DNA from: Bilabrum cf. latius
Taxonomy: Eukaryota
DNA length: 64,000 nucleotides
NCBI GenBank assembly: GCA_965178125.1
Contig: OZ237766.1
Coordinates: 1-64,000 of the forward strand
Direction of reading: 5' to 3'
Below the pieces are notes generated by a model. The model made no database searches and had not been told where the DNA came from. It saw nothing but the letters and a program-made list of their open reading frames with translations. Shown piece by piece: positions 1 to 35,017 of the stretch. Every line of letters starts with the position of its first letter. The first letter of the stretch is position 1. The position numbers and the translations under genes were made by a program.

Positions 1-106
1 ATTTCGCGCTGCTCGTTGGGTGAACGGGTAGGTTTCGGCGTGACAAGTGCAAGTTGCGTGCACTTTTGATGCGAATCTGTATTTTTTTTTCGGTTTCGCG
101 TGGGTT

Positions 107-198
107 GCTGTGGTGGTGGAGTGGTATTGCGTACGGTTGGTAATCGCACCCCGGCCTACCCCCGAGGTTCGATTCCCGTTGGGGCGATCTTTTTTTTT
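107..198 (+). ncRNA. Degenerate tRNA-like / Pol III promoter element (A box, B box, oligo-T)
   Basis: A-box-like TGGTGGAGTGGT at 114-125, B box GGTTCGATTCC at 166-176, T-run from 189; cloverleaf stems pair poorly, so probably not a functional tRNA. Confidence 0.55.
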
Positions 199-413
199 AT
201 TTTTTTCTGGGCTGGAGTCCGGCCCCCCACGACTGGAGAGCCGACCCAACATCATGGGTCCCGGGTCTGAGACCGAGTGGGCGGGGTCGTGGCCCTTTTT
301 TTGTGTCCTCGAGCTTGCCCTGGAGTACCTCTAGGTCTCGTGTCCGTGTTCCCTGCCGCACTCAAGCGTCTGTTCGTGACCTCACCTGTGTTCCCCTGTC
401 ACCGCAGAGTACC

Positions 414-1994
414 ATGGCCGCCGCAAAGAGCTACAGCGTCAAGCACACCAGCAAGTCTCGCCCTGTCGTGGCCGCCCTGGCTTCAGGCGTCGACACGTCC
501 GCGGCCAAGCAGGTCCTACTGATCTCTCTCGTGGGCCTCCACCAAGACTGCGGGTTGCTCTGCGGGTCTACCGAGCACTACAAAGGGACCAAGAAGGCGG
601 GCATCAAGGCCTGCGTGGATGCCATCCTGGCGCTGGATGAGTCGAAGCTGCCCATCGTTTTACTGACCGCGCTTGACAGCAGGCTAGCACCTGGCCCATC
701 AGCCAGGAGCTCCAGCTCACCAGGCTTCCAGAAGATGCGGGAGCTCCTCACAGGCCTGCGCGAGAGCGGTTACTCTGTCACCAAGAACTCGTGGCTAAGG
801 GCAGGCATGGACGGTCTCCGGAAGTACTACAAGGACACAGTGAAGCTCGTCTGTGACTATGGAACCGGCATGGCGACAATGCGTGCTCGCGGAGGCATGG
901 ACGCTCTCTTCATAGACGTACTTGAGACGCCTGCTTATAAGCATGCCGGGGCTTCAGCAGGAGATCAAAGTAGTTCTTCGGGAGCCACTGCTGCCGCGCC
1001 GAGTGGCACGTCCCGTACGCGGAAGGGCATGCGCAGTATCATGGACGACGACGACGACGACGACGACGAGAAGGATGCCGCGGAGTACAGTGCCTACACG
1101 ACCCGGGGGGACCAGAGCAGAACGGTACCAGACGACTCAGAGTCCAGTGGAGCGGGGGAAAGCGAGCATGAGGGTGCCTCTGGCGAGTCCAGCGACTCTT
1201 CGACCGATCAAGCATTCAACGATCTTCTCAGAGCCAAGCGTGCGGCGGAAGCCAAGGAGAGGAAAAAGGCTAAGGCCAAGGCCAAGGCTTGGGCAAAGGC
1301 TGCGGGCAAGTCGACGGGCAAGTCCAAGGGCACGTCTAAGGGCAAGTCGAGGGATACAGGTACCCAACCGGCAGAACCGAAGGGCAAGAAGGCGGCTGGA
1401 GCCGCGCCTCGGGCTAAGAGGCAGCCCGAGCGATCGCCTGTCGTCCATCTGGGCAATGCCGGAAGAGCTCGCCGCGCCGTTGAACAGGAGAAGAGGGGAG
1501 CAAGTGGCGCAAGGAGTGGAGCAGCAGCATCACTGCATCGACAGGACTCTGAGGAAGATGAAGAGGAGACCGGTGGTCGGTACCAAGCAGCTGGAGAGCA
1601 GGACGACGACGAGGCTCCGATGGGGCTTATGCAGCAAGACGAGGAGGTGCAGCTGGACGAGGAAGAAGAGAACGAGGCCCAGAACCAGCAGGACGACTCT
1701 GACAACAACAGTGGAATGGAGGAGCCCGGCTTCACCCCCTAGCAGCGGAATCTGGTGGACCGCATCCTCGCTGCCTGCGATGACACCGCGATGGGCGTCG
1801 GCCGGACCATCGAAGACATGGTCGAGGACGTGGAGGAAACAATTGCAGAGAGGGACCACGGGTTGAGCACGCTCGCAGACCTGATGACGGCCCTCGAGCA
1901 GACGGTGAAAGGAGATCTCAATGCGGAAGCCGTGGACGCTGTGGAGGCGATCCTAGCAGCTGTCGGAGCGGAGCCTTCCTCCGATGACGAGTGA
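414..1994 (+). CDS. Element-encoded protein of unknown function (~526 aa with TAG=Gln): conserved N-terminal domain, D/E- and K-rich linker, acidic helical C-terminus
   Basis: ORFs 303-1742 and 1755-1994 are in one frame, split by TAG 1740-1742 and ending in TGA; paralog at 3797-5329 differs by many synonymous changes. Confidence 0.75.
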
Positions 1995-2272
1995 GAGGCA
2001 GTCAGGGGGAGTGAGAGCCAGCCAGGAGGATGGCAAATGAGGTCAGTGGCTACTGGGCCAGCTTGTGAGAGGAGTTTGCCAATGTGTCGGCCAGTGACCC
2101 GTTAAGACGAAGTGTTAGGAGCCAGGAGGCATTCTGATTAGTCTTGACTGTAAACCCATCAATACCCACATATCAAAGCGGTCCATCAAGCAAATACATT
2201 GCCGTCTTCACCATACCCATACTATGGACACATGAACAACACAATTCTGAAGATATGAACTTCACCATTGGT

Positions 2273-3025
2273 CCATATCGGCGCCGCGCGACCAAAACGG
2301 AACCTGGGGAACATTTGCCCCATGTTGTGCCCCCAGGCCGTCCCAATGCCGTTTCAACGGTCTTCATATCTCCTGTGGTTGCCGAGATCCTATGTTGTAT
2401 TTTTGCAGCATGTAAATCTTCATCGAGCCATATCGGCGCCGCGCGAGCAAAACGGAACCTGGGGAACATTTGCCCCATGTTGTGCCCCCAGGCCGTCCCA
2501 ATGCCGTTTCAACGGTCTTCATATCTCCTGTGGTTGCCGAGATCCTATGTCGTATTTTTGCAGCATGTAAATCTTCATCGAGCCATATCGGCGCCGCGCG
2601 ACCAAAACGGAACCTGGGGAACATTTGCCCCATGTTGTGCCCCCAGGCCGTCCCAATGCCGTTTCAACGGTCTTCATATCTCCTGTGGTTGTCGAGATCC
2701 TATGTCGTACTTTTGCAGCATGTAAATCTTCATCGAGCCATATCGGCGCCGCGCGAGCAAAACGGAACCTGGGGAACATTTGCCCCATGTTGTGCCCCCA
2801 GGCCGTCCCAATGCCGTTTCAACGGTCTTCATATCTCCTGTGGTTGTCGAGATCCTATGTCGTACTTTTGCAGCATGTAAATCTTCATCGAGCCATATCG
2901 GCGCCGCGCGACCAAAACGGAACCTGGGGAACATTTGCCCCATGCTGTGCCCCCAGGCCGTCCCAATGCCGTTTCAACGGTCTTCATATCTCATGTGGTT
3001 GCCGAGATCCTATGTCGTATTTTTT
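2273..3025. repeat. 155-bp tandem satellite, type A (~4.9 units)
   Basis: Unit starts CCATATCGGCGCCGCG at 2273, 2428, 2583, 2738, 2893. Confidence 0.97.
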
Positions 3026-3087
3026 CGACAAATATTGAAGATGAAAATATTTTTTCCCCGACCCTGTCCCTGACTTTATATTAGATA

Positions 3088-3584
3088 CCCTAACCCTAAC
3101 CCTAACCCTAACCCTAACCCTAACCCTAACCCTAACCCTAACCCTAACCCTAACCCTAACCCTAACCCTAACCCTAACCCTAACCCTAACCCTAACCCTA
3201 ACCCTAACCCTAACCCTAACCCTAACCCTAACCCTAACCCTAACCCTAACCCTAACCCTAACCCTAACCCTAACCCTAACCCTAACCCTAACCCTAACCC
3301 TAACCCTAACCCTAACCCTAACCCTAACCCTAACCCTAACCCTAACCCTAACCCTAACCCTAACCCTAACCCTAACCCTAACCCTAACCCTAACCCTAAC
3401 CCTAACCCTAACCCTAACCCTAACCCTAACCCTAACCCTAACCCTAACCCTAACCCTAACCCTAACCCTAACCCTAACCCTAACCCTAACCCTAACCCTA
3501 ACCCTAACCCTAACCCTAACCCTAACCCTAACCCTAACCCTAACCCTAACCCTAACCCTAACCCTAACCCTAACCCTACCCTAA
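3088..3584. repeat. Internal telomeric tract (CCCTAA)n, ~0.5 kb
   Basis: Perfect hexamers; one CCCTA variant at the proximal end. Confidence 0.99.
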
Positions 3585-3796
3585 ATTCTGGGCTGGGGCC
3601 CGGGCCCCCACGACTGGAGAACCGACCCAACATCATGGGTCCCGGGTCTGAGACCGAGTGGGCGGGGTTGTGTCCTTTTTTTTTTTGCCCCTCGAGCTTG
3701 CCCTGGAATATCCCTGGGTCTCATGTCCGTGTTCCCTGCCGCATCCAAGCGCCTGTTCGTGACCTCACCCGTGTTCCCCTGTCACCGCAGAGTACC

Positions 3797-5329
3797 ATGG
3801 CCGCCGCAAAGAGCTACAGCGTCAAGCACACCAGCAAGTCTCGCCCTGTCGTGGCCGCCCTGGCTTCAGGCGTCGCCACGTCCGCGGCCAAGCAGGTCCT
3901 GCTGATCTCCCTCGTGGGCCTCCACCAAGACTGTGGGCTGCTCTGCGGGTCTACGGAGCACTACGAAGGGACCAAGAAGGCGGGCATCAAGGCCTGTGTG
4001 GATGCCATCCTGGCGCTGGATGAGTCCAAGCTGCCGTCTGGCGTGCTCGAGTCGCTGAACCGTCGCCTGTACCCGGCTGCATCAACCAGCGGCTCCAGCT
4101 CGCCAGGCTTTCGGAGGATGAAGCAGCTGCTCATGGGCCTGCGCGAGTGCGACTACTCGGTGACCAAGAACCAGTGGTTCAAGGCAGGCATGAAAGGCCT
4201 GAGGAAGAACACCTACAACGAAGCGATCAAGTTCATCTGCGACTACGGAGCTGGGAAGGCCTCTGTGCGTGGTCGCGGAGGCATGCAGGCTGTCTTCCAG
4301 GACGTATTCGAGTTGCCGGCTGACGACTCTGCCGAGGATTCAGCAGGAGATCAAGGTGGTTCTTCGGGAGCCGCTGCTGCCGCACCTAGTAGTGCACCCC
4401 GTACGCGAAAGGGCAAGCGGAGTGCCATGGACGACGACGACGACGACGACGACGAGGATGTCGCGGAGCACAGCGCCACCACGGCCCGGAGGGAGCAAGG
4501 CGGGATGGATCTGGACGACTCAGAGTCCAGCGACTCATAGACCGAGCAAGCACTCCACGATCTTCTCAGAGCCAAGCGAGTGGCGGAGGCCGAGAGAAAG
4601 GAAAAGGCAAAGGCCAAACTTAAGGCCAGGACCAAGGCCGCGGGCAAGTCGAAGAGCAAGTCGAAGGGCAAGGCGAAGAACAAGGGTGCCCGATCAGCAG
4701 AGCCATAGGGCAGGCACGCTGAAGCCGCGCCTCCGGCTAAGATGCAACCCAAGCGATCGCCCGTTCTCCAACCGGCCTATGGCGGAGGAGCTCGCCACGC
4801 CGTTGAACAGGAGAAGAGGGGAGCAAGTGGCGCAAGGAGTGGAGCAGCAGCATCACTGCCTCGACAGGACTCTGAGGAAGATGAAGAGGACATCGGTGGT
4901 CGGTACCACGTAGACGCAGCCGAAGAGCAGGACGAGGATGAGGCTCCGATAGGGCTCGTGCAGCAGGACGAGGAGGATGGGGACGAGCTGGATGAGGAAG
5001 AAGAGAACGAGGCCCAGAACCAGCAAGACGACTCTGAGAACGACGGTGGAGTGGAGGACAACGGCTTCACCGACTAGCAGCGGCACCTGGTGGACCGCAT
5101 CCTCACTGCCTGCGATGACACCGCGCTGGGCGTCAGCCGGACTCTCGACGACATGGTCGAGGACGTGCAGGAAACAATTCAAGAGAGGGACCACGGATTG
5201 GGCATGCTCGCAGACCTGATGACGGCCCTCGAGAAGACGGCGGAAGGAGATCTCAATGCGGCAGACGTGGACGCTGTGGAGGCGCTCCTGGCAGCTGTCG
5301 GTGCGGAACCCTCCTCCGATGACGAGTGA
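3797..5329 (+). CDS. Element-encoded protein, copy 2 (~510 aa with TAG=Gln)
   Basis: One frame with TAGs at 4538, 4706 and 5075, ending in TGA; colinear with 414-1994. An in-frame upstream ATG exists at 3635. Confidence 0.75.
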
Positions 5330-5686
5330 AAAGCAGCCAATCGGATGGCAATTGCGGTCAGTGGCAGCTGGGCCAGCTTGTGAGAGGAGTTTGCCAAAGT
5401 GCCTGCCAGTGATCCAATTTAGGACGCATTTGTACGAGCCAGGAGGCATTCTGTTTAGTCTTGACCATCACCCAATGGAAGCCTGATATCAAAGCAATGT
5501 ATCTAGCAAAGTGGGTTTAACGCATACAAATAGCTAGGTAGAACGAGCCATGGCATCTAACATCGGTCAATAACCGCTAGCTTCTCGAACCAAGCAGTGT
5601 AGGTTTGTAGACCCCCTTGGGTAGGTTTGCAAACCCCCACCGGGTGAGTTTGAAAACTCCATACTTCCGCTGCATGATGTAAACAA

Positions 5687-7188
5687 ACCCTGGCAAACAT
5701 TTGCCCCATGATATGGCCCTAGGCCGTCCCAAAACAGTTTGAATCATCTTCATACCTATTCTAGTTGCTGAGATCGCAGAGGGCACATTTTCGGCATGTA
5801 AATCTTCATCAGCCAGTATCGTCGCCGCGCGGTCAAAACGGAACCTGGGGAACATTTGCCCCATGATATGGCCCTAGGCCGTCCCAAAACAGTTTGAATC
5901 ATCTTCATACCTATTCTAGTTGCTGAGATCGCAGAGGGCACATTTTCGGCATGTAAATCTTCATCAGCCAGTATCGTCGCCGCGCGGTCAAAACGGAACC
6001 TGGGGAACATTTGCCCCATGATATGGCCCTAGGCCATCCCAAAACAGTTTGAATCATCTTCATACCTATTCTAGTTGCTGAGATCGCAGAGGGCACATTT
6101 TCGGCATGTAAATCTTCATCAGCCAGTATCGTCGCCGCGCGGTCAAAACGGAACCTGGGGAACATTTGCCCCATGATATGGCCCTAGGCCGTCCCAAAAC
6201 AGTTTGAATCATCTTCATACCTATTCTAGTTGCTGAGATCGCAGAGGGCACATTTTCGGCATGTAAATCTTCATCAGCCAGTATCGTCGCCGCGCGGTCA
6301 AAACGGAACCTGGGGAACATTTGCCCCATGATATGGCCCTAGGCCGTCCCAAAACAGTTTGAATCATCTTCATACCTATTCTAGTTGCTGAGATCGCAGA
6401 GGGCACATTTTCGGCATGTAAATCTTCATCAGCCAGTATCGTCGCCGCGCGGTCAAAACGGAACCTGGGGAACATTTGCCCCATGATATGGCCCTAGGCC
6501 ATCCCAAAACAGTTTGAATCATCTTCATACCTATTCTAGTTGCTGAGATCGCAGAGGGCACATTTTCGGCATGTAAATCTTCATCAGCCAGTATCGTCGC
6601 CGCGCGGTCAAAACGGAACCTGGGGAACATTTGCCCCATGATATGGCCCTAGGCCGTCCCAAAACAGTTTGAATCATCTTCATACCTATTCTAGTTGCTG
6701 AGATCGCAGAGGGCACATTTTCGGCATGTAAATCTTCATCAGCCAGTATCGTCGCCGCGCGGTCAAAACGGAACCTGGGGAACATTTGCCCCATGATATG
6801 GCCCTAGGCCGTCCCAAAACAGTTTGAATCATCTTCATACCTATTCTAGTTGCTGAGATCGCAGAGGGCACATTTTCGGCATGTAAATCTTCATCAGCCA
6901 GTATCGTCGCCGCACGGTCAAAACGGAACCTGGGGAACATTTGCCCCATGATATGGCCCTAGGCCATCCCAAAACAGTTTGAATCATCTTCATACCTATT
7001 CTAGTTGCTGAGATCGCAGAGGGCACATTTTCGGCATGTAAATCTTCATCAGCCAGTATCGTCGCCGCGCGGTCAAAACGGAACCTGGGGAACATTTGCC
7101 CCATGATATGGCCCTAGGCCATCCCAAAACAGTTTGAATCATCTTCATACCTATTCTAGTTGCTGAGATCGCAGAGGGCACATTTTCG
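5687..7188. repeat. 155-bp tandem satellite, type B (~9.7 units)
   Basis: TTGCCCCATG recurs every 155 bp from 5701 to 7096; shares the core AAACGGAACCTGGGGAACATTTGCCCCATG with type A. Confidence 0.97.
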
Positions 7189-7249
7189 ACAAAAAAATGA
7201 AGATGAAAATATTTTTTCCCCGACCCTGTCCCTGACTTTATATTAGATA

Positions 7250-7730
7250 CCCTAACCCTAACCCTAACCCTAACCCTAACCCTAACCCTAACCCTAACCC
7301 TAACCCTAACCCTAACCCTAACCCTAACCCTAACCCTAACCCTAACCCTAACCCTAACCCTAACCCTAACCCTAACCCTAACCCTAACCCTAACCCTAAC
7401 CCTAACCCTAACCCTAACCCTAACCCTAACCCTAACCCTAACCCTAACCCTAACCCTAACCCTAACCCTAACCCTAACCCTAACCCTAACCCTAACCCTA
7501 ACCCTAACCCTAACCCTAACCCTAACCCTAACCCTAACCCTAACCCTAACCCTAACCCTAACCCTAACCCTAACCCTAGCCCTAACCCTAACCCTAACCC
7601 TAACCCTAACCCTAACCCTAACCCTAACCCTAACCCTAACCCTAACCCTAACCCTAACCCTAACCCTAACCCTAACCCTAACCCTAACCCTAACCCTAAC
7701 CCTAACCCTAACCCTAACCCCTACCCTACC
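7250..7730. repeat. Internal telomeric tract (CCCTAA)n, ~0.48 kb
   Basis: Perfect hexamers except one CCCTAG near 7574 and CCCCTA-CCCTA at the proximal end. Confidence 0.99.
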
Positions 7731-8597
7731 GGGTGAGTTTGAAAACTCCATACTTCCGCTGCATGATGTAAACAAACCCTGGCAAACATTTGCCCCATGA
7801 TATGGCCCTAGGCCGTCCCAAAATAGTTTGAATCATCTTCATACCTATTCTAGTTGCTGAGATCGCAGAGGGCACATTTTCGGCATGTAAATCTTCATCA
7901 GCCAGTATCGTCGCCGCGCGGTCAAAATGGAACCTGGGGAACATTTGCCCCATGATATGGCCCTAGGCCGTCCCAAAACAGTTTGAATCATCTTCATACC
8001 TATTCTAGTTGCTGAGATCGCAGAGGGCACATTTTCGGCATGTAAATCTTCATCAGCCAGTATCGTCGCCGCGCGGTCAAAACGGAACCTGGGGAACATT
8101 TGCCCCATGATATGGCCCTAGGCCGTCCCAAAACAGTTTGAATCATCTTCATACCTATTCTAGTTGCTGAGATCGCAGAGGGCACATTTTCGGCATGTAA
8201 ATCTTCATCAGCCAGTATCGTCGCCGCGCGGTCAAAACGGAACCTGGGGAACATTTGCCCCATGATATGGCCCTAGGCCGTCCCAAAACAGTTTGAATCA
8301 TCTTCATACCTATTCTAGTTGCTGAGATCGCAGAGGGCACATTTTCGGCATGTAAATCTTCATCAGCCAGTATCGTCGCCGCGCGGTCAAAACGGAACCT
8401 GGGGAACATTTGCCCCATGATATGGCCCTAGGCCGTCCCAAAACAGTTTGAATCATCTTCATACCTATTCTAGTTGCTGAGATCGCAGAGGGCACATTTT
8501 CGGCATGTAAATCTTCATCAGCCAGTATCGTCGCCGCACGGTCAAAACGGAACCTGGGGAACATTTGCCCCATGATATGGCCCTAGGCCATCCCAAA
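7731..8597 (+). mobile_element. Element copy 3: short fragment truncated at both ends, mostly type B satellite (~5.3 units)
   Basis: Begins at the equivalent of ~5642 in copy 2; ends inside a unit at CCCAAA, fused to the telomeric tract. Confidence 0.7.
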
Positions 8598-9432
8598 CCC
8601 TAACCCTAACCCTAACCCTAACCCTAACCCTAACCCTAACCCTAACCCTAACCCTAACCCTAACCCTAACCCTAACCCTAACCCTAACCCTAACCCTAAC
8701 CCTAACCCTAACCCTAACCCTAACCCTAACCCTAACCCTAACCCTAACCCTAACCCTAACCCTAACCCTAACCCTAACCCTAACCCTAACCCTAACCCTA
8801 ACCCTAACCCTAACCCTAACCCTAACCCTAACCCTAACCCTAACCCTAACCCTAACCCTAACCCTAACCCTAACCCTAACCCTAACCCTAACCCTAACCC
8901 TAACCCTAACCCTAACCCTAACCCTAACCCTAACCCTAACCCTAACCCTAACCCTAACCCTAACCCTAACCCTAACCCTAACCCTAACCCTAACCCTAAC
9001 CCTAACCCTAACCCTAACCCTAACCCTAACCCTAACCCTAACCCTAACCCTAACCCTAACCCTAACCCTAACCCTAACCCTAACCCTAACCCTAACCCTA
9101 ACCCTAACCCTAACCCTAACCCTAACCCTAACCCTAACCCTAACCCTAACCCTAACCCTAACCCTAACCCTAACCCTAACCCTAACCCTAACCCTAACCC
9201 TAACCCTAACCCTAACCCTAACCCTAACCCTAACCCTAACCCTAACCCTAACCCTAACCCTAACCCTAACCCTAACCCTAACCCTAACCCTAACCCTAAC
9301 CCTAACCCTAACCCTAACCCTAACCCTAACCCTAACCCTAACCCTAACCCTAACCCTAACCCTAACCCTAACCCTAACCCTAACCCTAACCCTAACCCTA
9401 ACCCTAACCCTAACCCTAACCCTAACCCTACC
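8598..9432. repeat. Most proximal telomeric tract (CCCTAA)n, ~0.83 kb
   Basis: Perfect hexamers; C-rich strand on + is the orientation of a left chromosome end. Confidence 0.99.
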
Positions 9433-9434
9433 CC

Positions 9435-9765
9435 TTCAGGCGGTGGGAAGCGGGCGCCGTGGATGGCCGCATTCAGGCGGTGGGAAGCGGGCGCCGTGGA
9501 TGGCCGCATTCAGGCGGTGGGAAGCGGGCGCCGTGGATGGCCGCATGCAGGCGGTGGGAAGAGGGCGCCGTGGATGGCCGCATGCAGGCGGTGGGAAGAG
9601 GGCGCCGTGGATGGCCGCATTCAGGCGGTGGGAAGAGGGCGCCGTGGATGGCCGCATTCAGGCGGTGGGAAGAGGGCGCCGTGGATGGCCGCATGCAGGC
9701 GGTGGGAAGAGGGCGCCGTGGATGGCCGCATTCAGGCGGTGGGAAGAGGGCGCCGTGGATGGCCG
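9435..9765. repeat. 37-bp G-rich subtelomeric minisatellite (~9 units)
   Basis: Unit TTCAGGCGGTGGGAAG(C/A)GGGCGCCGTGGATGGCCGCA; some units begin TGCAGG (36 bp). Confidence 0.95.
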
Positions 9766-12612: not shown

Positions 12613-15600
12613 TTAACCCCGCCCGTTACTGACAGACCCAAGGTAGTCATCCTGATTTGCCCTCCGCTTGTCTCGCATGGCAGCCTTGGCAGCGGCACCC
12701 GCCTTCTTGCCGATCCTGTACCGCACGTCAGACCCCCGAGACACAAACCTTCGTCGCCATGCCGCAAATTCGGACTCCAAAGACGATGATGTACCAGCTC
12801 CTGTCCCCTGGCCTCGACTACCTGACTGCAAACGAGACGCGTGCTGCTCTGCAACCGCGTAATCCGCCATGTCTCCCCGCACGTCACCGGCCCACTCCAC
12901 CAGCAGCTCTTGCCCTGCAAACACCCGGCCCGGCAAAGGTAGGCGACCCATGGGCCCCTGCAGCCTCACTGGGGCCTCGGCATCCACCGGTGGATCACCG
13001 CTGCGCAGCGCTGCCACCACGGCTTGGTCCTGCCCCGGGCCGGTAGCCACGCTCAGCGAGGTCGGCAGTGCCCTGCCCCCCCTCGACACGGCCGCCCCCA
13101 GTCCATCCATGAGCACCCGCACCACCACCGCTGCTGCCTCTGGGCTCAGACCCCGCACATCCAGCAGCACAGGGTCGTCGCCCACTCGGCTGGCCATGTC
13201 ACCGTCCATGGCTGCATCCAGCCGAGCCCACACTGGGTCCCGCCCCGGGGAGCTCGCCGGCCCGCGGCCTGGCTGTCCGACCCCGAAAGCGAGACGACTG
13301 AGCAGCCCAGCCCCCCAGGCTGCCTCCAGCACAGACAACACATGCTACTGCCGACCTGCCTGCACCGCTAGCTCCAACAGCTCCACCGCCTGCGCCTCGC
13401 ACTCCAAGCGCCTCGATCCACCGTCAGCTGCCATTGCCATCCCACCAATCTCTAGCGAATGTGCCCCTGTGGAGATCGCTTCCTGTGCAGCAATCCTCAG
13501 TTCGTCTGCCTGATGCCCGCCCAGCCCTACCCCGCCGGCACCCACCGCCAGTGCGGCGCTCCCGTCCAGCTCTGCAGTCCGTGCCCGCGCCAGTGCCTCC
13601 CTGCCGGCGGCAACCAGCACTCCACAGAGCTTGCCCACAAACTCGCTGCTCAACGCACTCACAGACCCACTAGCCACTGCAGCCTCCAGCAGCGCAGACG
13701 CAGCCTCGACGCGCTCGGCAGGGGAGCGAGGGTTTGCCTCAGCCGCCTACGGAGGGGTGCCGAGTCCCTGCCCTCTCCGTCTAGTCAGTGCACCGGTACC
13801 TGCACCTCCCAGCCGGGCATCCACTGCGTCGAGTGGAGGCAGAGAGTTACTCGACCCGCCTGCACTTGCCGTGACACCTTTCCCAACGGCTCCTGCCTCG
13901 CCCTCTAGCTGCTCCAAGAAACCGCACGCCTCTGCAGCTGCCTCCAGCAAAGCAGAAGACACGGGCAGCCGCATCATCTCCCACGCCTCAGCTACGCTCG
14001 CCACAACTGCACCGTCTCTGGCAAGCGCACCTGCTGAAGCCACTGCCTCCAAGTGCGCCAGCAGCTGGTTGCGTTCTATTGCTGGAGCGATGGACGCAAT
14101 GCCGTGCTGCTCGAGCCGGTGAAGAGTTTTTGTCGCATGATCCACGACTCGTGCGGGTGGGGCTCTTACGGACTTCTCTCCAGTGGCTTGCGCCACTGCA
14201 AGCATAGAAAGCACATGCGCGGCACGACGGGCCTCGGCGTCTGCTTCCACGAGTGGCTCGGGTGGCATGCACAGCTGCAGCACTCTGCGAGCCAGTCCCG
14301 ACCACTCCTTCGGCTGGATCGCCTCGCGGGCGCCCTGCATTGCCCTTCCCTGCGCCGACCTCGCCGCCTCGTCGTGGGGCTACTTGCCGCCGGTGAGGGC
14401 GCGCAAGCCTGCGCCCCGACCTGCGGCCAGCGAGGGGTCCGACCATGCCGCTGCTCGCTCCGCCCTCACCACGGCCAGCGCCGCACGGCTCTCGGGGCCC
14501 ATGGCTGGCCCTGGGCTCGGGAGAGTTACTGCATGCGCTGGCGAGACCGGCCCACTACCGATGGGAGCTGATGTTCCGAGAGCGCCAGCCACATCGCTGG
14601 CATGCCTGGAGAGCAAGCTACGCATCGCTAGTGCGGCGGGGCCTGTGCTTGCGCTCGCAGGCAGGCGGGGCAGAGAGGGGGCAAGCTGGTGGGCCTGGGC
14701 TGCAGACGGCGCCCATCGCATGCGCTGTGCATCTGGCGTGGCTAGTTCCCCTATGCTCGCCAGCTGGGGACTCGGGTCCGTCGGTTTCAAACCAGAGCTG
14801 CCTTCCTGCACGCTTGGCAGCAGATCTTGCGGACCCAGAGTCCCGGGGACGTGTCCTCGCGCAAGGGCAGGGACTGGTAAGGCCGGCACCACTGCGTCAG
14901 GCGGTGCAAAGGCGCTGGCTTCATTTGCGGCTTGCATGGCAATCGACTCCATGCGGGTCAGCGGAGGTTCGCTGGCGCCATCAGTGATCGGGACCAGCTC
15001 ATCGCTAGTCGACAGGACCGCCCCGGGTGCCCTCACTTCTTGCAATGGGATCGACTGGGACACTTGCGATGCAGCATCCCTCGTGACTGATGTGGGCGAA
15101 TACGCAGCAACAAGAGGGTTTGAGCTGGACCCGTTGCTCGACGATGCGCCTACAAATCGTTCACTCACTCCGCCTGATTGCGGGGCACCTCGTGATGACG
15201 CATCAGCGCGATTCAACCTGCCTTGTTGTCCGGCCTGGATCTTGGCCGGCGTCTTGGTCTGGCGGCCATCTGCCACTCCTCCACCGATCAGGGCCGCCTC
15301 ACTGTGGGCAGGCCATGCAGTTGGGTCGTCATCTCTACCTAGAGGTGGCAAGCCCGCTTCTCGTGCGGCTCTTTCTGCCCTGCGCATCATGGACCAGTGC
15401 CCGTCGGGAAGCGGCTCCACTTTTGCAGCTGCGGTCTCTTCGTCTGCTCCATCTGCTCGAGCGGCTCGACGGGCAGCTCTCACCCGCCGAGCTCGCGCCT
15501 CTGCCACTGCACGCAGCTCCCTGGCCTGCTCTCGGGCATACATGCCGGACGCAAGCCTGCCGATGCTTCCGGCATCGTAGGGATCCGGTGTCTTTCGGCG

Positions 15601-18252
15601 AACCACTCGAGTGGATGACCGTTGCGGTGCATCTACTGACTTGGCACTGGTTGGACCGTCCACCTGCTACATAGAACCCAGCTGCAGCAGATCTGCCAGG
15701 GTGCCCCGTCCGTCGCTCGCTTCTCTCACAGCCTTCTCTGCACCTTCCAGTCCCGGGGCAGCAGCAGCTGCCAACTACCGGTGTGCCATGCCGAGAGCAA
15801 AGCCGCGCGTCTGCACAGCTCGTTCGCGGGCAGCCTCTTCAGCACGTTGTCTCCAAGCCACAGGAAGGAATGATAGCGCCGCTGCAGCCGCCTATGCAGC
15901 TTGGTCAGCAGTTGGAAGCAGCGACAGGACGGTCCGCGCTGCTGCCGCTTGATCGACACCAATGACCTTTGAAGCATGGCCGGGGGCCATGGTTGTTCCA
16001 GCGATCAGCTTCGTCTCTTTGCGTTGCTAAGCTCCACCATAACCGCGATGCGCGGCTACACCGGCAGCTGCAGAGACGCCCGCCTGCATCTCATCCCACG
16101 ATGCCCACTGCCCACTCTCAGCAGCAGCCCGAAGCTCCTTCACGAAAGCACCCCGAGATTCGAGTTGCAGTCGGGCAGCTGCCCAGTCGCATCGCATCAT
16201 CGCTCGCACGCAATCAGTCAAGGCGTCTGCGCTGCGAGAGGCAGCCAGACGGGCTGCCCGTTGGTTGGTCCCGGGCTACATGTTGCTCAGTGGAAGCAGC
16301 GATAGCGCACGAGATGCCGCCCGCGTTGCACTGCTGGCTGCATCACCATCTGGGTGTGACCCAGTCGTCCTCAGCAGGCCAGCGGTTCGGCCTAGAGCGG
16401 CGTGCAGTGAGTCTGGGGACAGCTGCGGGAGTCTGTGAGCCGCCAGTCGCCCCGAATCAGCTGCCCCCAGCAGCGCCGACCATGATGGGCCCAGAGCCTC
16501 TGCGCCCGCACTCAACTCGGCGCTGTCTTCTCCGCGGAACATCAAGAGCCCAGACCCGGTTTGTGTCCGCCGGGAGAGTCTGGCCCATCGCTGGGCATCG
16601 TGCGCAGCCTCGACGATGCTGGTGAGCGCCGTGGTGGACTCAAGGCGGGCACCAGATGCCGCGCACACGCGCAGCAGCCATCGAAGCGCGGGAGCATCTG
16701 CCTCCGAGCATATGCGGGCCAAGACAGACGCCCATGCAGAGCCCAGGTCGCGCTGACACCGTTCGGCTACCGCTTCGCCCCCTTGCTGCACGGGCGGGGC
16801 GGTGGTCAGTCGAGCCGCCGCAGAGGTCGCTGCCATGCCTCTCGCACTGGAGAGAGTTTGTCTCTGGGCGGTTTGGCCAGGCTACGGCAGCTCTAGGATG
16901 GGCGCTACTGCAGCCACCACGTCTTCCAGAGGCACGAGCGGCGAGGCAGCTATGCCCTGCACTGCCGCTCGCACCGACCGAGCGACTGCAGGCGATGCAA
17001 GTACACGAGATCGAACCTCAGAACCAGGCCTAGCAGCGTCAGTTACTGCACGGAGAACTTGGCGGGGCAGCGCAGTGTTTCCAGCTTGATGTGCTAGGGA
17101 AAGCACGGCGTGGATGGCAGGCTCCAGTGCCTCCGACTACCCTAGGGCACCAGGAGCACCTGGATCGCGCTACTGCATCAGGTACCAGCGCCAGATGGCC
17201 AGCAAGGGCACGCTGATAGCATCGAGCACTGGACTATACGGGCCAGCGTCTCCTGTCCGCTCGACGGCTGTTGCCATGCCCGACACAAGGACCGACAGCC
17301 GAGAAAGCAACTCAGGGGTGCTTTCAACGTGCGTACCCTCGTCCAACGTAGTGCTCGCTAGTTGCCTGGATATAGAAAGTACCATCTCTACTGATTCTGT
17401 CTGCTGCCGCACCCCGGCCGCTGTGTGAGGGCCTTCCTGTAAGGTACCCGCCATTATCCATGCCCGAGCGAGCCGACTGTTTCCAGCCTGCATGCCTGCC
17501 TGCAGCAGAATTTCATCAAGAGAGGAGCTGATGCTAGTATTTGCTCCCTTGCTGATACTTTTGAGAGCAGCGGACACAGACTCGGCCCACAAGAGGCCCT
17601 CAGGGATAGTCTCATGCAGGAGGGCAGGACGGCCGAGGAACCAGCCGCCGAGCTGCGCTTCTCGACAGCTGAGAGCCAGCAAAGCAAGTGTAGGTCGATT
17701 AACCACATAATTTAGGGATGTACTGCATGCATTCTTTGCTGCAAGTGCCGCTTGTACTGCGACTGTCTGGTGCCACCGGGCATCTGCCTCGCTAGCTCGA
17801 TGTGCCAATGCAGGCGGCTGCTATACTCCCTTGGAGGCCCGCAGAGAGTCTAATAGACTGTACATAGCAATACTAGGCGAACGAATGTGATGCTCGCATG
17901 CATCTGCAAATCGCTTGGCCCATATTGACCTGCCACCGTAACTTCCCTGCGCGGCATTCCATGCGGCATCCCCAATGCTCTGTTGTGCAGAACCACGCCA
18001 AGCGCTCGTCCGGCTCGCGAATGAATTCTGACACCTGCGTTGACCTCTGAGTGTTGTTTTACGTGTTTGGAAGCTGATGGAGCCATGTAGGTTGCAAGTC
18101 GTCGAGCTGCTTGCTCTCAGCTGCAACTGTCGCCGGGTTGCCCGACTAGCTTGATGCAGTATCAAAAATTGCAGGCTTGAGCGGAGTCTAATAAAGGCCT
18201 GGGCCATATCCTCGGTCCTACGCAGTTGCTAGTGGCGAATGAGAGCATTCAT
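12613..18252 (-). CDS. Large alpha-helical protein with C-terminal Smr-like domain (PPR-SMR-like), up to ~1879 aa
   Basis: Nine listed ORFs share one frame; 13 in-frame TAGs and no internal TAA/TGA; LLDVRGLS..AAAVV..LSVATGPG resembles Smr; stop TAA. Start codon uncertain. Confidence 0.7.
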
Positions 18253-18329
18253 GCTGCCAGTGTTGTGTTCGTCTGTTCATCATCACACGCACTCGGGCTG
18301 CAAGAGCAGCTTGCCGCTCAGTCAACGCC

Positions 18330-19589
18330 ATGGTGACTGCTAGCAGTCAAGTGAGCAACCATCCCGCAGATGTAGATGAGGAATTGCCGTTCTCACCGCG
18401 AGCTCCTGTTACAGGAGTTTGGAGGCTGGACCATGAGGCTTCAGAGCCACCAACACAACTGCTACTTGCACTGGGCCTGAGCAGCACCGCGAGAGATGCA
18501 GCAGAGAAGGTGGACATAACTTTAGTGATGCGCATGGTTGAAGGCAAAGCCGAAGATCAGCCCGCGTGGGTCTTGGAACACCATTCAATTCTAGGGCGTA
18601 AACGACGACGGTTTGTCCCTGCCTATGGCTTTGTCGTCAGGGAAGACGGCGCAGCAGCAGGAAGAGCTGAGCATAGACTAGCATATCGAGAGCCGATAAC
18701 AATACAAAGCGCAACCGAGCCGGCCTAGCCGGACTTGTCACAGTCGATTCTGCCAACGGTGCCGAAACCAGAGGCACCAGATCGCGACGTCCTGGGAGCT
18801 TCATGTTCATCGTGGGAGGAGCAGTCAGCAACATCCGCCAAATTAGGTATCTCCGGGAGTATTTAGCCGGCATCATCAGCCCGTGAGCCCGAGAATGGGC
18901 CTCTAGTCCGGGTGGAGACAAAGCTGAGCCGGGGCACCATCGAGGACGTACGTTGGCTTGAGGGTGGCGGGGATTGTCTAAAGCAAGCTGTCACGTTCAG
19001 ATTATCAAAAGCAGGGGCTGATTTGATAAGGTCAAATGCGGCCCAAGCTGCTGCCTCCTCTTCTTCCTCGTCTGCATCGGGGAGCAGCACAGCCAAGCCT
19101 CCCGTGCTGCCGCGAGTGGGGGAGCCGGTGCGGTTCGTGCGCTGTTTCTGGCGCGCGGGGGGCCGGTCTCCCTCTGCCCTGGCCAGAATTGCCGCCGCGC
19201 GTGGTCCCGTTGGCACTGCTTCAGGACTGGCAGCCCAGCAGCAGGTGCTGCAGGCAGTGACTGCCATCCTGCAGAGGCCAGTCATGGCGGCCCTCAGGCA
19301 GCGCGTGCAGGGGCTGGTGCTGAGGGAGGCCACCATGCGCGGCTCGCAGCAGGCTGCTGTTGAGATGAAGCTGCCTCCTGCACAGCTCTAGGGTCTGGAC
19401 AAGGCCCGCGCGGAGATCGAGGCAGCCGTCAAAGGGGCCCAGGACCAGTACGTTCGGGCACAGCTGCAGGCGGGTGTTCCCGCGCAGCTCGCCAAGCCTC
19501 TGCAGTTCGATCCAAAACAAATCCAGGCATGCACAGATGCTGCTGCGCAGGCGCAGAAACAGCAAATCGCGAAGCAACTGATGATGTTG

Positions 19590-19664
<75 letters not shown>

Positions 19665-20063
19665 CTGCAGCACAGATAGGCCCCTCAGCCTCAGGCCCAA
19701 TCCGCCAGCTCGTCTCAGGGCCTTGCTGCCCCAGCAGGACTACCTAGCGCTGCACCTGCCGGAGCCGGCACAATAGCTCCTTCCGTGTCTAGCAGTACTG
19801 GCACGTAGATGGGGCAAGCGCCAACAACGGTATCGAGCCAGACTCCCATGGCCGAATCGAGCCAAGCCCCAATGGCCGAATCGAGCCAGACGGAAAGGAC
19901 ACTCCCCAGCAGTACCGCGGCAGCCTTAGGATCTGCATCGCATATAGCTACCAGCTAGTCGCAACCGACGGCTGCCCCCGCCCATATCAACCCCGGTGCA
20001 GGGAGGATTGGGCTGTAGGGCGGGCTGGCCCCGGTGGTGCCGGGGACAGGGCCCAAGGGATGA
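18330..20063 (+). CDS. Hypothetical protein (~577 aa) with FABP/lipocalin-like N-terminus and a ~25-residue poly-Q tract
   Basis: Single frame through 7 TAGs to TGA 20061; VTGVWRLDHEASEP..LLLALGL resembles the FABP start; CAG/CAA run at 19590-19664. Confidence 0.65.
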
Positions 20064-25110: not shown

Positions 25111-28100
25111 TCAGCCATTCCTCAGCCTACCGGCATCCTCGCCACCAGTTTGGCCGTCCGCGTCCTTTGCCGCCGAGGCCGAGGCTGCAAGGAATCCGTG
25201 CGCCCCGCTGCCCGATGGTTTGCGCTTGCTCCTCGCCCGCCCTCGCTTCCCACCTGGACCCCGCCTAGTTGAGCCGTCAGGCGCCTCCCCGCTTTGCCGG
25301 AGCAGGTCAGCAGCGCGCCCCAAAGCTGCGCTCTGCAGGGCCAGCCCAGGAGGGCCCCCACCCCCACCACGCCCATCCATCGCAACTGTCCCTGTTCCCG
25401 CCTGTGGCCTGCGGGCCTGTGGATAGGCTGCAAACTCAGCATCATCGTCATTTCTCCGCCCAAGACTCGCCCCCGCGCGCCCCTTGTCCATGCCAGCGGG
25501 AGGGGAAGGGGAGTGCCCTCTGGACGCGGACAGACCCTCCGCAAGGGGTAGGAAGGCAGGCACGTTGCTGGGCACTGCGGCATCGCCGACGCCCTGCAGC
25601 GGCCCTGACCGCCGCCCGTCCGGGGGCAGGCTGCCAAACCCGCCTGGGCCTGGACAAACGCCAGCACCAACACCAGCACCCGGCCCTGCCCCAGCCCCCA
25701 CAGGCAGCTCCCCCGGGTGCCTCCCGAGGCTGCCCCGCCTCTCCCTGCCGGGGCCGGCCACACCTCGCCCCCCAAGTCGCGCCACTGCTACTCGCGAGTG
25801 GTGCACCCCCCCACCAGCCCCCCCCTCGCTGCCCCCCGTCACCCCCGGGCCCACAGAGTCGCTCCCGCTCGTCTCACCCTCGGACCGGGGAGAGATCATG
25901 TGCCCCCCGGGAGGGAGGCCCTGGACCTGCTGCCTCGACTGCGCTTGCCCCAGGCCGTGCCCCTGTCCCTGTCCCTGTCCGCGCTGTTGTCCCCGCGCGG
26001 ATGGCCTCGAATCCGCAGAGCTTGCCCGACTTACGGCTCTGCTGCTGCTTGACTTGCGACTTCCCCTTGAGCCACGGCGCCTGGGTCGATGCTGTCGTCG
26101 CTGGGCCCCGCGAGAAGGCTATTGCAATTGCTGTTGCTGTCGCTGGTTGTGCGCGCGCCCCAGTGACCTGCTGCTCAAGTCGGCGAGATACCCCGCGCCG
26201 TCCACTGCAGTCGAGCCCTGCACGGGCATGCGCGCGAGAGGAGGCACCATCGGTCCTGCCAGCGGGTAGGCTTGCCTGCCTCCCGGCTAGAGCTAGCTGG
26301 CGACTGGGCCGGTGGTGGGAGCGGGGCCGCCTGCGAAATGACCGGCTGCCTGCTGCATGCCTGGCTGTCCTTGCGCATAGACCATGCTGCCGAACTGCTG
26401 GGAAGGCGCCTACACCCATACCACTGGTTGCTACCCTTGAACTTGCCCCTGTCCTTGCAACTGAGCTTGCCCTGAAGTCAGCATCGGAGCGTGCTGCATC
26501 ATCATGAGCTGCTACTGGTGCTGGGGGACACCCGTTGATGCACCACCAGACGACAATGGCATCGCTTCAGCGCTCCCGTGCGACACCATACCAGAGCTAA
26601 CGCCAATGCCTACATTCACGTTTAAGCCCATGCTCATGCTCACACCCAAAGGCTAGCTCATACTCATCCCCTACCCCGTTCCCATGGTCTGGCCCACCAC
26701 CAGACCCGTGGGTGGCTACACCACTGCCCCAGCCGGAAAGACGCCAGATGATGACCCGCTGCTCCCCACGGACACTGGCACCGCCAAAGCGCTTGCAGTA
26801 CCCGCTGGAGCCACGGAGCTTATGGCAGGGCCTTGCCACCCGCCCATGGGGACCTGGATAGGCATCATCGGGGCACTCGCATACTGAAATGGCTAGGAGG
26901 GCGGCGGCTGTGCGTGCGCGCCTACCGCTGCAGCTTGAGTCACGCCTGGGCTGGACTGGGCGAGCTGCGGTGCCAGCGCGGTAGCACCTGCACCGCTTGG
27001 CATCGGAGGTGGGTATGGGTACAGCTGAGCAGCCCCAGATCCGGTTCGCGAGCGAGAGCCACCCTGGTTGCCGGCCATGCCTCCACCCGTCTCTGTTGAC
27101 GCCGACCCTTTGGACTCCAGTACGCCCCCTCGCGCTCTGCTGGCATCCATTGAAAGACCGCCCTGGTCACCTGGGGACAGGGTTGAGGCGCCGGACTGCG
27201 CTGGTGTGAGCAGCAAGAAATCGCTGTCTCGCCTCCTCCTGTCAGATCCACTGCTGGGAGAATCTGGTTGCTTGTGGAGGGGTGCCTGCCGGCCAGGACT
27301 TGGGGGAGCTGACCCCAGTATCGCAGTCAGGTTCTTCGTCGAAGACTTTCGTGAGGCATTCGATGCGCCTAGAGAGTCAGTACCTGTCAATGGGACCCGC
27401 TTGGAATCTTTTGGCTGCTGCTCCTACTGCTACTGCTACCTTTGCTTTTGGGCCTACCGTTTAGTTTCTGTGTTCTTCTGATTCCTCGTGTTCTTCTTCT
27501 TTTTCTTCTTGGCCTGCTAGGATCGACCGCCTCCAGATGAACCGCCACGAGACGAGGCATCGTCGAATTGACCGCCACCCACTTGTGGTGCCCCTGCCCC
27601 GGACCCAGCCTGTCGTTGCCCTGCCATGGGTACCACGCCATGCATACCTACTGCAGCACTAGCTGCCCCCGGTGGAATGCCGGCATTCCAGACCGTAGCT
27701 GGAGCAGCACCTGTGCTGAAGCCCTGTGGGTGCGCGCCCATTGCGGGTTGGAGAGAGGCAGCGTACTGCATATGCTGGGCGATGCTCTGCTGGGCCTACT
27801 CCATGGACATGTACATAGAGCCTTCGTGCATGGCTTGCTCCGCCTCCTGCTCCGTTAGACTATCCGAGTGCATCTTGTTCGCCGCCACTCCTCTCGTGTA
27901 TGCCTCCCACTGTGCAAGGTACCCGTCCAGCATGCCCTGCATGGTCCTTGCAACGCCGTGAACCAGTTGCCACTCCTCTCGCAGCTGCGTATCCACATCG
28001 AGCACGGCTTGCAAAGGACCGTACATGCGGGCAGCATCGCTTTCTTCCGATCTCCGGCCAGGCCAGGCCTTGATTGCCTCCAGTGCCTCCCCACAGACTT

Positions 28101-34100: not shown

Positions 34101-34449
34101 GCCGGGAGCTAGACACGGCCGAGTGTGGTACAGCGCCAAGCAATGCAGCAGCCTATGAGTACGGCTCTTTCGGCAGCTGTGGGGGCACCACTGTGGCCCG
34201 TGGGCGGGCTGCAGCTTTAGAATCAGTCTAGCTGCTGCCAGCAGACCCGGGACCTGCCACTTCTGTCGCTCCATGCGTTCCAATTGTGGACGTTGATGGT
34301 CGTGAATTCGAACCCAACGAGCTCGAGCTCAAGTTCCCTGTAGCGGCTCGGCCTGACGGACCAATGCCTCTTCTGCGGCGTCGAGGCGCCGGTGTGGCTC
34401 GTGCTGGCGAGGGTCTGCTCTACTGCTCAGAACCACGTGATGATGACAT
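25111..34449 (-). CDS. Very large non-canonical poly(A) polymerase / terminal nucleotidyltransferase (Trf4/PAPD5 family, MEE44-like), ~3100 aa
   Basis: FGSHITQLATPASDVDV catalytic motif, LNDAYAGGLSSY, PAP-associated LVILDP..NIARSCYRFSQIQ; frame open from 34842 to 25111 with ~44 TAGs and no TAA/TGA. Start codon uncertain. Confidence 0.85.
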
Positions 34450-35017
34450 TAAATCAGTTACTGTAGCTTTATCTGTGTGCTAAGTATTGCGAATCCTTAA
34501 GCTGAAGAGGGGTAAACAACGTACAGCTTGCGAACTGCCAATTCCAAAGGAAACACTGTTCGTGGCGTGGTCCTGCGAACACAACGGGGCAACAGTCAGC
34601 ACCATACGGCTCATTGGCGCAACAGTGACAGCAAAAATTGCACGCACCAGGAGATTCGAAAGATGGCCTGGACTGGAGATGAGCCATTCCCACAGAGTGC
34701 GACCGTGTACCTAATGCATCGCAGAGGAGGCATCGTCTGACCGAGGCACAGCGCACGAAGACAGACAAACAACTATAACTACAAGTAGCAACTCACACAG
34801 GGTTGAAGGAGTGGGTATGTGGCGAAGCCACCGACGCAAGAGTTAGTGCGAATGGGTAGTGTGGCGCCGCGCAATGGTGCAGTGTGTGGTTCCGCTAATG
34901 CCAAGCTGGAGGCTTGGAGCAAGCGCCGGGAAATGGTCACGCACAGGTGATCCTAGTACGTTGATTCACATTCTATCCATACCGACAAGACCAGGCCACC
35001 CGTACATGTGAGCGTTA

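What the first reader, a model, noticed from the sequence alone, without database searches (positions are those of the whole stretch)
1..9432. Chain of telomere-capped, 5'-truncated elements interleaved with (CCCTAA)n: candidate terminal retroelement family
Seen: three co-oriented copies, each followed by a telomeric tract. Copies 1 and 2 share the exact 3' junction, while the 5' ends of copies 2 and 3 are cut at different points and capped by telomeric repeats; the ORF sense strand points from telomere to centromere. Established: this polarity and truncation pattern characterises chromosome-end retrotransposition (Drosophila HeT-A/TART; endonuclease-deficient Penelope-like Athena/Coprina/Terminon elements primed on the G-overhang). 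Inference: successive rounds of element addition and telomerase healing. No RT is present, so this is a non-autonomous element or the 3' part of a longer one; Y'-like recombinational spread is the alternative.
Basis: partly seen in the sequence, partly recalled or inferred. Interest (0 to 1): 0.85.

Follow-up and report, generated by a model that had tools for sequence, protein, structure and literature searches.

The report
Telomere-capped repeat elements at chromosome end
At one chromosome end of a protist that reads TAG as an amino acid, three same-direction copies of an orphan gene-carrying repeat alternate with long telomere tracts, a layout best explained by repeated RNA-mediated additions to the chromosome tip, each later re-capped by telomerase.

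Summary
Window 1-9435 holds three co-oriented copies of one repeat family, each followed by 480-844 bp of nearly pure (CCCTAA)n. Copies 1 and 2 are only about 83% identical, yet their last 50 nt and their junction with the telomere tract are identical. Copies 2 and 3 start at different internal points. Each start abuts the irregular base of a telomere tract, like the native telomere/subtelomere junction.

The organism reads TAG as sense, so both ORFs (526 and 510 codons) are intact. The protein has no known domain and no relatives beyond two fragments. No reverse transcriptase, endonuclease, helicase, hammerhead ribozyme, poly(A) or stable 3' fold was found in the visible parts. Copy 1 runs off the window, and contigs from public runs show that its upstream part belongs to the family.

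Best reading (about 0.5): a telomere-specific, RT-less (or 5'-incomplete) retroelement added to chromosome ends and healed by telomerase, working like HeT-A, Athena/Terminon or MoTeR. Membership in any of these families is not shown. The main rival is recombinational spread (about 0.3). Whether single reads span the tracts could not be tested.

Novelty: new variant of a known kind. Interest is moderate to high.

The parts
1..204 (+). Upstream segment of copy 1, open at the window edge. It contains a weak tRNA-like stretch (105-189) followed by a T-run (190-204).
   Evidence: Contigs of run X5 (records 25 and 26, covering 122-277) bridge position 205. X2 record 9 and X5 record 24 continue about 730 nt further left. 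The tRNA-like call appears only at relaxed ARAGORN settings and there is no Rfam match.
205..413 (+). Conserved 5' untranslated region of copy 1
   Evidence: 51-59 of 60 columns identical to copy 2 in the bins covering 209-446
414..1994 (+). ORF of copy 1: 526 codons plus a TGA stop, with one in-frame TAG at 1740-1742
   Evidence: Translation. No Pfam family. 73% amino-acid identity to the copy 2 ORF, with all 7 indels in frame.
2273..3024 (+). 155-bp tandem array in the 3' untranslated region of copy 1 (4.9 units)
   Evidence: TRF; units listed in register
3025..3086 (+). 3' tail of copy 1. Its last 50 nt are identical to the copy 2 tail, and it abuts the telomere tract directly.
   Evidence: Alignment. 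No significant RNA fold (z -0.2 to +0.3). No Rfam hit.
3087..3584 (+). Telomere tract 1. 82 CCCTAA hexamers; the one variant (CCCTAC) lies at the proximal base next to copy 2.
3585..7248 (+). Copy 2, 5'-truncated at the equivalent of copy-1 position about 205. ORF 3797-5329 (510 codons, three in-frame TAG), 155-bp array 5689-7188 (9.7 units), tail 7189-7248.
7249..7728 (+). Telomere tract 2. 77 CCCTAA hexamers, one internal CCCTAG, and two irregular units at the proximal base next to copy 3.
7729..8597 (+). Copy 3, consisting only of the 3' UTR array (5.3 units). It is 5'-truncated at the equivalent of copy-2 position 5640 and 3'-truncated inside a unit. The last 6 nt (CCCAAA) could belong to either the element or the telomere tract.
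   Evidence: 4 differences in 863 nt against copy 2. Its last 77 nt match copy 2 at 6891-6967 exactly.
8592..9435 (+). Telomere tract 3, the innermost. 138 CCCTAA hexamers, with an irregular base (CCCTACCCCTT) at the native subtelomere.
9435..9765 (.). 37-bp subtelomeric satellite (8.9 units) that marks the start of chromosome-specific sequence
   Evidence: TRF

Best explanation
This is a family of telomere-specific repeat elements. Each has a 5' UTR, an orphan ORF of about 520 codons, a long 3' UTR with a 155-bp tandem array, and a conserved unstructured 3' tail of about 60 nt. Copies were added one after another to this chromosome end.

Proposed mechanism (inferred, not shown):
1. A + strand transcript ends in or next to CCCUAA repeats.
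2. That RNA is copied from the 3' OH of the G-rich telomere end. The reverse transcriptase acts in trans or is encoded in the unseen 5' part of the full-length element.
3. The cDNA extends the chromosome. The new end is the element's full or truncated 5' end.
4. Telomerase seeds a new telomere on that end, with irregular first repeats.
5. The cycle repeats.

What is shown: the layout, the shared 3' junction, the different 5' cut points, the irregular repeats at the base of each tract, the intact and partly constrained ORFs, and the existence of a diverged multi-copy family.

What is inferred: the RNA intermediate, the source of the RT, and priming on the overhang.
For: - Three co-oriented copies are each followed by 480-844 bp of (CCCTAA)n.
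- Copies 1 and 2 are about 80-84% identical, so copy 1 is not a local duplicate of copy 2. Yet their last 50 nt and the telomere junction are identical.
- 5' ends fall at different internal points.
- The tracts hold 82, 77 and 138 canonical hexamers. In all three, variants sit at the centromere-proximal base next to the element 5' end or the native subtelomere. Only tract 2 has an extra internal variant. The distal ends, which abut the next tail, are perfect. This fits de novo seeding on a non-telomeric end.
- TAG is a sense codon in this genome, so both ORFs are open. All 7 indels are in frame, dN/dS is 0.54 overall and 0.08 in the first 80 codons.
- The family is absent from the 54.6 kb of internal sequence in the window.
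- At 80% or higher likeness, 163, 87, 112 and 32 contig pieces from four runs in two studies lay on copy 1, spread over all likeness classes. This is the subfamily structure expected of a transposable element.
- The same polarity and capping pattern is described for Terminon/Athena, MoTeR and HeT-A/TART (passages read).
Against: - No RT, endonuclease or any Pfam domain was found in any frame of 1-2273 or in the + frames of 3585-5689.
- No hammerhead or other Rfam family was found.
- There is no poly(A) and no stable 3' fold.
- The ORF has no zinc knuckle and no homologue apart from two fragments on one unnamed contig.
- Copy 3 lacks the 3' tail. Initiation at the RNA 3' end does not predict this. 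It needs internal priming at the CCCAAA hexamer or a later deletion.
- dN/dS is 0.46-0.87 over most of the ORF.
- No RNA evidence and no genome-wide map of copies could be obtained.
- Every feature seen in the DNA could also be inherited by recombination once a first element-to-telomere junction existed.
Confidence: 0.5

Rival explanations
1. This is a recombinational subtelomeric cassette, comparable to yeast Y' elements or ALT-type amplification. A host or ex-mobile gene plus its satellite spreads between chromosome ends by break-induced replication or gene conversion started in telomere tracts. The truncations come from terminal erosion or breaks that telomerase then heals. No current RNA intermediate is involved.
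For: - No RT or other transposon domain was found.
- The ORF is an orphan under only moderate constraint.
- Copy 3 is cut at both ends, and its 3' cut lies at a hexamer that matches the telomere unit at 5 of 6 positions. Microhomology-mediated invasion or deletion explains this simply.
- Identity between the two subfamilies is mosaic: 93-98% in some blocks and 65-80% in others, which indicates recombination among copies.
- The MoTeR paper documents break-induced expansion at interstitial telomere tracts (passages read).
Against: - Recombination does not explain how an element 3' end first came to abut the distal end of a telomere tract with the sense strand pointing inward.
- Copies 1 and 2 differ by about 17-20%, and the laid contigs span all likeness classes. 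Recombining subtelomeric repeats are usually homogenised (my recollection for Y' elements, not checked here).
- Strict conservation of the terminal 50 nt amid about 20% divergence suggests a function at the element terminus.
Confidence: 0.3
2. This is an endonuclease-dependent, site-specific retrotransposon that nicks telomere repeats and inserts inside an existing tract, as MoTeR/FoTeR or Bombyx TRAS/SART do. On this reading it does not add to the very end of the chromosome.
For: Elements flanked on both sides by telomere repeats, head to tail, with the 5' end toward the chromosome end, are exactly the MoTeR/FoTeR layout. A non-autonomous partner without an RT (MoTeR2) is known.
Against: - Irregular units lie within the last two repeats next to the 5' ends of copies 2 and 3, and the native subtelomere junction looks the same. 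Insertion into the middle of a uniform tract would leave regular repeats there.
- No endonuclease or RT is visible.
- The tracts here are 80-140 repeats long. Inter-MoTeR tracts range from half a unit to just over 20, and FoTeR 3' ends are followed by 3-8 repeats.
Confidence: 0.12
3. This is an assembly artefact. Reads from different chromosome ends were chained through their shared telomere repeats.
For: The tracts (480-844 bp) and the 155-bp arrays are hard to assemble. Spanning reads could not be examined here.
Against: All tracts are C-rich on the same strand. Fusing two true chromosome ends would give opposed orientations. An element tail followed by (CCCTAA)n is necessarily an internal tract, and it occurs twice with different upstream sequence. 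Copy-1-specific contigs with no differences from the window occur in three runs (records 5, 6, 8, 13, 14 and 21).
Confidence: 0.05

Closest known systems
Endonuclease-deficient Penelope-like elements (Athena, Coprina, giant Terminons)
   Same: These elements sit at chromosome ends in organisms that have telomerase. Copies are 5'-truncated by telomere repeats and form head-to-tail chains. The 3' end is joined to reverse-complement telomere repeats, and extra non-enzymatic ORFs are common (passages read).
   Different: No PLE RT is visible and no hammerhead ribozyme was found. That motif is said to be present in all PLE groups other than the Naiad/Chlamys clade, both EN+ and EN-, and it was tested here. 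The tracts between copies are long (80-140 units) rather than short stretches.
Drosophila HeT-A (with TART/TAHRE)
   Same: [quoted passage not shown]
   Different: HeT-A ends in oligo(A), belongs to non-LTR elements with a Gag ORF, and replaces telomerase repeats altogether. Here there is no poly(A) and no zinc knuckle or Gag family hit, and telomerase-type tracts alternate with the elements.
MoTeR1/MoTeR2 of Magnaporthe and FoTeRs of Fusarium
   Same: These lie in (TTAGGG)n telomeres with the 5' end nearest the chromosome end, head to tail and separated by telomere tracts. Truncated copies are capped by telomeres, and MoTeR2 is a non-autonomous partner.
   Different: Those families encode an RT. 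My recollection is that they also carry a restriction-like endonuclease, but I did not read that here. Intact MoTeR copies carry variant repeats at the 5' end. Their interstitial tracts are short. None of this is seen here.
Yeast Y' and fungal telomere-linked helicase elements
   Same: These are ORF-bearing subtelomeric repeats in tandem, with telomere repeats between copies, spread by recombination (recalled, not read here).
   Different: No helicase domain was found. The copies here are strongly diverged and variably truncated.

Membership tests
EN-deficient Penelope-like elements (Athena/Coprina/Terminon) | Penelope-type reverse transcriptase ORF | tested here: inconclusive
   No RT in six frames of 1-2273 or in the + frames of 3585-5689, nor in the large ORFs elsewhere in the window. 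However, copy 1 runs off the window, and contigs continue about 730 nt further left.
EN-deficient Penelope-like elements (Athena/Coprina/Terminon) | Hammerhead ribozyme motif near the 3' end | tested here: not met
   Rfam search: no match at gathering scores over the whole window, none at E<=1 in 1-3100, and only noise at E<=10 in 6990-7290.
EN-deficient Penelope-like elements (Athena/Coprina/Terminon) | 3' end joined to reverse-complement telomere repeats, with 5'-truncated copies capped by telomere repeats in head-to-tail chains | tested here: met
   It cannot be told whether any of the repeats are carried by the element itself.
HeT-A/TART/TAHRE | 3' oligo(A) facing the centromere | tested here: not met
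   The tail ends in ...TATATTAGAT and is followed directly by ACCCTAA.
HeT-A/TART/TAHRE | Gag-type ORF with zinc knuckles | tested here: not met
   No Pfam family and no CX2CX4HX4C motif in either ORF.
MoTeR/FoTeR telomere-targeted non-LTR elements | RT (and endonuclease) ORF in autonomous copies | tested here: inconclusive
   None in the visible parts. The full-length 5' part is unseen.
MoTeR/FoTeR telomere-targeted non-LTR elements | Variant telomere-like repeats at the intact 5' end | not testable with these tools
   No intact 5' end lies in the window, and the genome is not held.
MoTeR/FoTeR telomere-targeted non-LTR elements | 5' end toward the chromosome end, head to tail, telomere tracts between copies | tested here: met
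   The tracts here are far longer (80-140 units).
Y' / telomere-linked helicase elements | Helicase ORF | tested here: not met
   No helicase family in any frame.

The most novel reading that the evidence does not exclude
This protist has telomerase and a TAG-recoded nuclear code, and it builds composite telomeres. A new class of terminal retroelement alternates with telomerase-made tracts. The element carries only an orphan, non-Gag, non-enzymatic ORF and a conserved unstructured 3' tail, with no ribozyme and no poly(A). It would be copied onto the G-overhang by an RT it does not encode, possibly telomerase itself or an unlinked RT. That would be a functional counterpart of HeT-A arising independently outside animals.
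Probability: 0.2. Interest if true: 0.85.

Novelty: new variant of a known kind. Interest (0 to 1): 0.6.

Why it matters
Telomere-specific retroelements bear on how telomerase and retrotransposons are related, and on how chromosome ends can be maintained by more than one reverse-transcription system. A family with an orphan ORF, none of the known hallmarks (hammerhead, poly(A), Gag knuckles, RT in the visible copies) and full-length telomere tracts between copies would add an independent case, apparently in a stramenopile-like protist. The alternation of element and telomerase tract records successive end-healing events that can be read directly from the sequence. If the rival holds, the locus is still a clear example of subtelomere growth through interstitial telomere tracts.

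Tried and rejected
- **Whole genome:** not held, so copies and junctions could not be mapped and copy 1 could not be extended leftward.
- **Sequencing runs:** five runs in two studies hold parts of copy 1. No RNA holder is listed, which says nothing about expression.
- **Laying contigs:** only short Logan contigs were available, so spanning of the tracts, copy number and truncation gradients could not be read. None of the 24 loose ends shown is telomeric, but 104 more were not shown and rows at repeats were dropped, so this is uninformative.
- **Relatives of the ORF:**
  - none among 8000 scored candidates of the 5.8-billion-protein set;
  - 2 short fragments in 1.84 billion representatives, both on one unnamed 12.8-kb ENA contig that could not be fetched;
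  - none in JGI metagenome contigs by protein or by a 29-mer of the 155-bp unit;
  - none in GTDB genome contigs, IMG/VR or a PDB sequence profile search;
  - the ESM Atlas gave only 0.90-score unnamed clusters.
- **AlphaFold2 on the two-sequence alignment:** mean pLDDT 39.9. I ran no fold search because the model is unusable.
- **3' tail:** no significant RNA fold. The three in-phase NNNCCC hexamers in the tail are within chance expectation (2.6 per window) and are out of phase with the tract.
- **tRNA-like stretch 105-189:** found only at relaxed thresholds and with no Rfam match.
- **Which residue TAG encodes:** not resolved. The TAGs in RNase H2A, PSD, the GOST protein and the nucleotidyltransferase fall at poorly conserved positions.
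- **Earlier notes of this scan:** nothing found.
- **Literature:** Gladyshev and Arkhipova 2007 is not held. My memory that it reports such elements in stramenopiles is unverified. Supplements of the papers I read were not consulted.
Full report
**Observation.** The first 9.4 kb of the window holds three co-oriented copies of one repeat, each followed by a long, nearly pure (CCCTAA)n tract.
- Copy 1 (1-3086, open at the window edge): an upstream segment (1-204), a 5' UTR, an ORF (414-1994), 4.9 units of a 155-bp tandem repeat (2273-3024) and a 62-nt tail.
- Tract 1: 3087-3584.
- Copy 2 (3585-7248): the same order of parts, with its ORF at 3797-5329, 9.7 repeat units and a tail.
- Tract 2: 7249-7728.
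- Copy 3 (7729-8597): only 5.3 repeat units.
- Tract 3: 8592-9435. It meets a 37-bp satellite (9435-9765), and ordinary genes follow.

All telomere runs are C-rich on the + strand, and no other run occurs in the window. The chromosome end therefore lies to the left and the ORFs point toward the centromere. The family is absent from 9436-64000.

**Relations among the copies.** Copies 1 and 2 are only 80-84% identical, so they are two subfamilies. Identity is mosaic: 93-98% over the 5' UTR and first 70 codons and again at 1464-1583, but 65-80% in between. The last 50 nt of the tail and the junction with the telomere tract are identical. Copy 2 begins at the equivalent of copy-1 position about 205. 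Copy 3 belongs to the copy 2 subfamily, with 4 differences in 863 nt. It begins about 2.05 kb into copy 2 and ends inside a 155-bp unit at CCCAAA, so it has no tail.

**Telomere tracts.** The three tracts hold 82, 77 and 138 canonical CCCTAA hexamers. In every tract the irregular units, each including a 5-nt CCCTA, sit within the last two repeats at the centromere-proximal base. That base lies next to the 5' end of copy 2, the 5' end of copy 3 or the native subtelomere. The distal ends, which abut the next element's tail, are perfect. Each tract therefore looks like a telomere seeded de novo on a non-telomeric end, onto whose perfect distal end the next element was later joined.

**Genetic code and ORF.**
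- Reading TAG as sense raises the longest open frame in 9801-64000 from 874 to 3243 codons. That frame (25114-34842, minus strand) holds 46 TAG codons and no TAA or TGA. Reading TGA or TAA as sense gives no comparable gain.
- TAA and TGA end the long frames.
- In RNase H2A a TAG lies between two conserved, same-frame domains. In phosphatidylserine decarboxylase, TAGs lie between the C2, EF-hand and PSD domains.
- TAG is therefore a sense codon here. Its residue was not determined, and Q is used only as a placeholder.
- Under this code both element ORFs are intact (526 and 510 codons). They are 73% identical, and all 7 indels are in frame.
- dN/dS is 0.54 overall, 0.08 in the first 80 codons and 0.46-0.87 elsewhere.
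- The protein has a basic N-terminal region that is probably helical, an acidic run, a lysine-rich basic stretch and an acidic helical C-terminus (low-confidence model).
- It has no Pfam family, no zinc knuckle and no PDB relative.
- Against 1.84 billion representatives it matches only two short fragments on one unnamed contig.

**What is not there.** There is no RT, endonuclease or helicase in any frame of the non-array parts. There is no Rfam family, hammerhead included. There is no poly(A), and the conserved tail has no significant RNA fold.

**Evidence from public runs.**
- Four runs labelled organism A (one study) hold 42-51% of sampled words of copy 1. One run labelled organism B (another study) holds 7%.
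- I laid the contigs of three organism-A runs (X1-X3) and the organism-B run (X5) on 1-2280 at 80% or higher likeness. This placed 163, 87, 112 and 32 pieces, spread over all likeness classes, which indicates a diverged multi-copy family.
- Contigs with no differences from copy 1 occur in three runs.
- Two organism-B contigs (covering 122-277) bridge position 205. Rows at 198 and 216 suggest the same for X1-X3, which is my inference. Contigs continue about 730 nt left of the window.
- The 1-204 segment is therefore part of the family, copy 2 is truly 5'-truncated, and the full-length element is longer than anything visible.
- These are short contigs. They cannot show copy number, RNA ends or spanning of the tracts.

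**Interpretation.** Several features match terminal retroelements as described for Terminon/Athena, MoTeR/FoTeR and HeT-A/TART:
- the polarity of the copies;
- the constant 3' junction in two diverged subfamilies;
- the different 5' cut points capped by de novo-looking telomere bases;
- confinement to the chromosome end;
- the subfamily structure.

I favour terminal, RNA-mediated addition followed by telomerase healing (0.5). The irregular repeats at the tract bases argue against endonuclease insertion into a uniform tract (0.12). Recombinational spread (0.3) explains the 3'-truncated copy 3, the mosaic identity and the lack of any transposon domain. It does not explain how the tail-to-telomere junction first arose. 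Misassembly (0.05) is unlikely because the tracts are co-oriented, but spanning reads were not examined. Membership in the PLE, jockey-clade or MoTeR families is not shown. The hammerhead, poly(A) and Gag-knuckle tests failed, and the RT test is inconclusive because the 5' part is missing.

**Context and novelty.** The best named matches to the window's RNase H2A are stramenopiles (Phaeothamnion, Aphanomyces, Tribonema and others, 42-52% identity). The best match overall is an unnamed ENA protein at 69%. This is a weak, single-gene placement. A 2023 paper lists telomere-associated retrotransposons in insects, Chlorella, Anolis, Magnaporthe, rotifers and Giardia (passages). One search combining stramenopile with telomere-retroelement terms listed no paper containing the word stramenopile. 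Three searches on UAG reassignment listed no stramenopile with such a nuclear code. These are listings only, not proof of absence. I rate the finding a new variant of a known kind, with interest 0.6.

Noticed in passing
window 9800-64000, for example 25114-34842 (-), 12616-18276 (-), 56391-57731 (-), 44063-46954 (+): TAG behaves as a sense codon across the host genes, while TAA and TGA terminate. Examples are a 3243-codon frame with 46 TAG codons and TAGs lying between conserved same-frame domains of RNase H2A and PSD. The host looks stramenopile-like by its RNase H2A hits. Three literature searches listed no such nuclear code in stramenopiles. The residue that TAG encodes was not determined.
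   Followed up: partly
window 105-204: A weak tRNA-like stretch with a T-arm-like GGTTCGATTCCC is followed by a 9+7 T-run, just upstream of the point where copy 2 begins. It was detected only at relaxed ARAGORN settings and has no Rfam match. It could be a Pol III-type unit or SINE-like module inside the full-length element.
   Followed up: partly
window 8592-8597: Copy 3 joins the innermost telomere tract at CCCAAA, a 5-of-6 match to the telomere unit inside the 155-bp repeat. This fits either internal priming by the G-overhang on element RNA or a microhomology-mediated deletion or invasion.
   Followed up: partly
window 9435-9765: A 37-bp satellite (8.9 units, 98% matches) lies directly at the native telomere/subtelomere boundary. 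It is unrelated to the elements.
   Followed up: no
window 205-2272 versus 3586-5688: Identity between the two subfamilies is mosaic. Synonymous divergence is 0.12-0.14 at the ORF ends and 0.63 in codons 80-200, which suggests recombination or template switching between subfamilies.
   Followed up: partly
window 19589-19672 and 61530-61705: A (GCA)28 run encodes a long poly-Q stretch in the frame 18243-20060 (+). A 45-bp repeat (3.9 units) encodes a repeated peptide in the frame 60343-63999 (+).
   Followed up: no
proteins P0001 and P0002 (unnamed ENA contig of 12,766 bp): The only database relatives of the element ORF are two short fragments. One switches into another reading frame of copy 1, so that contig carries a copy-1-like element with indels.
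   Followed up: no
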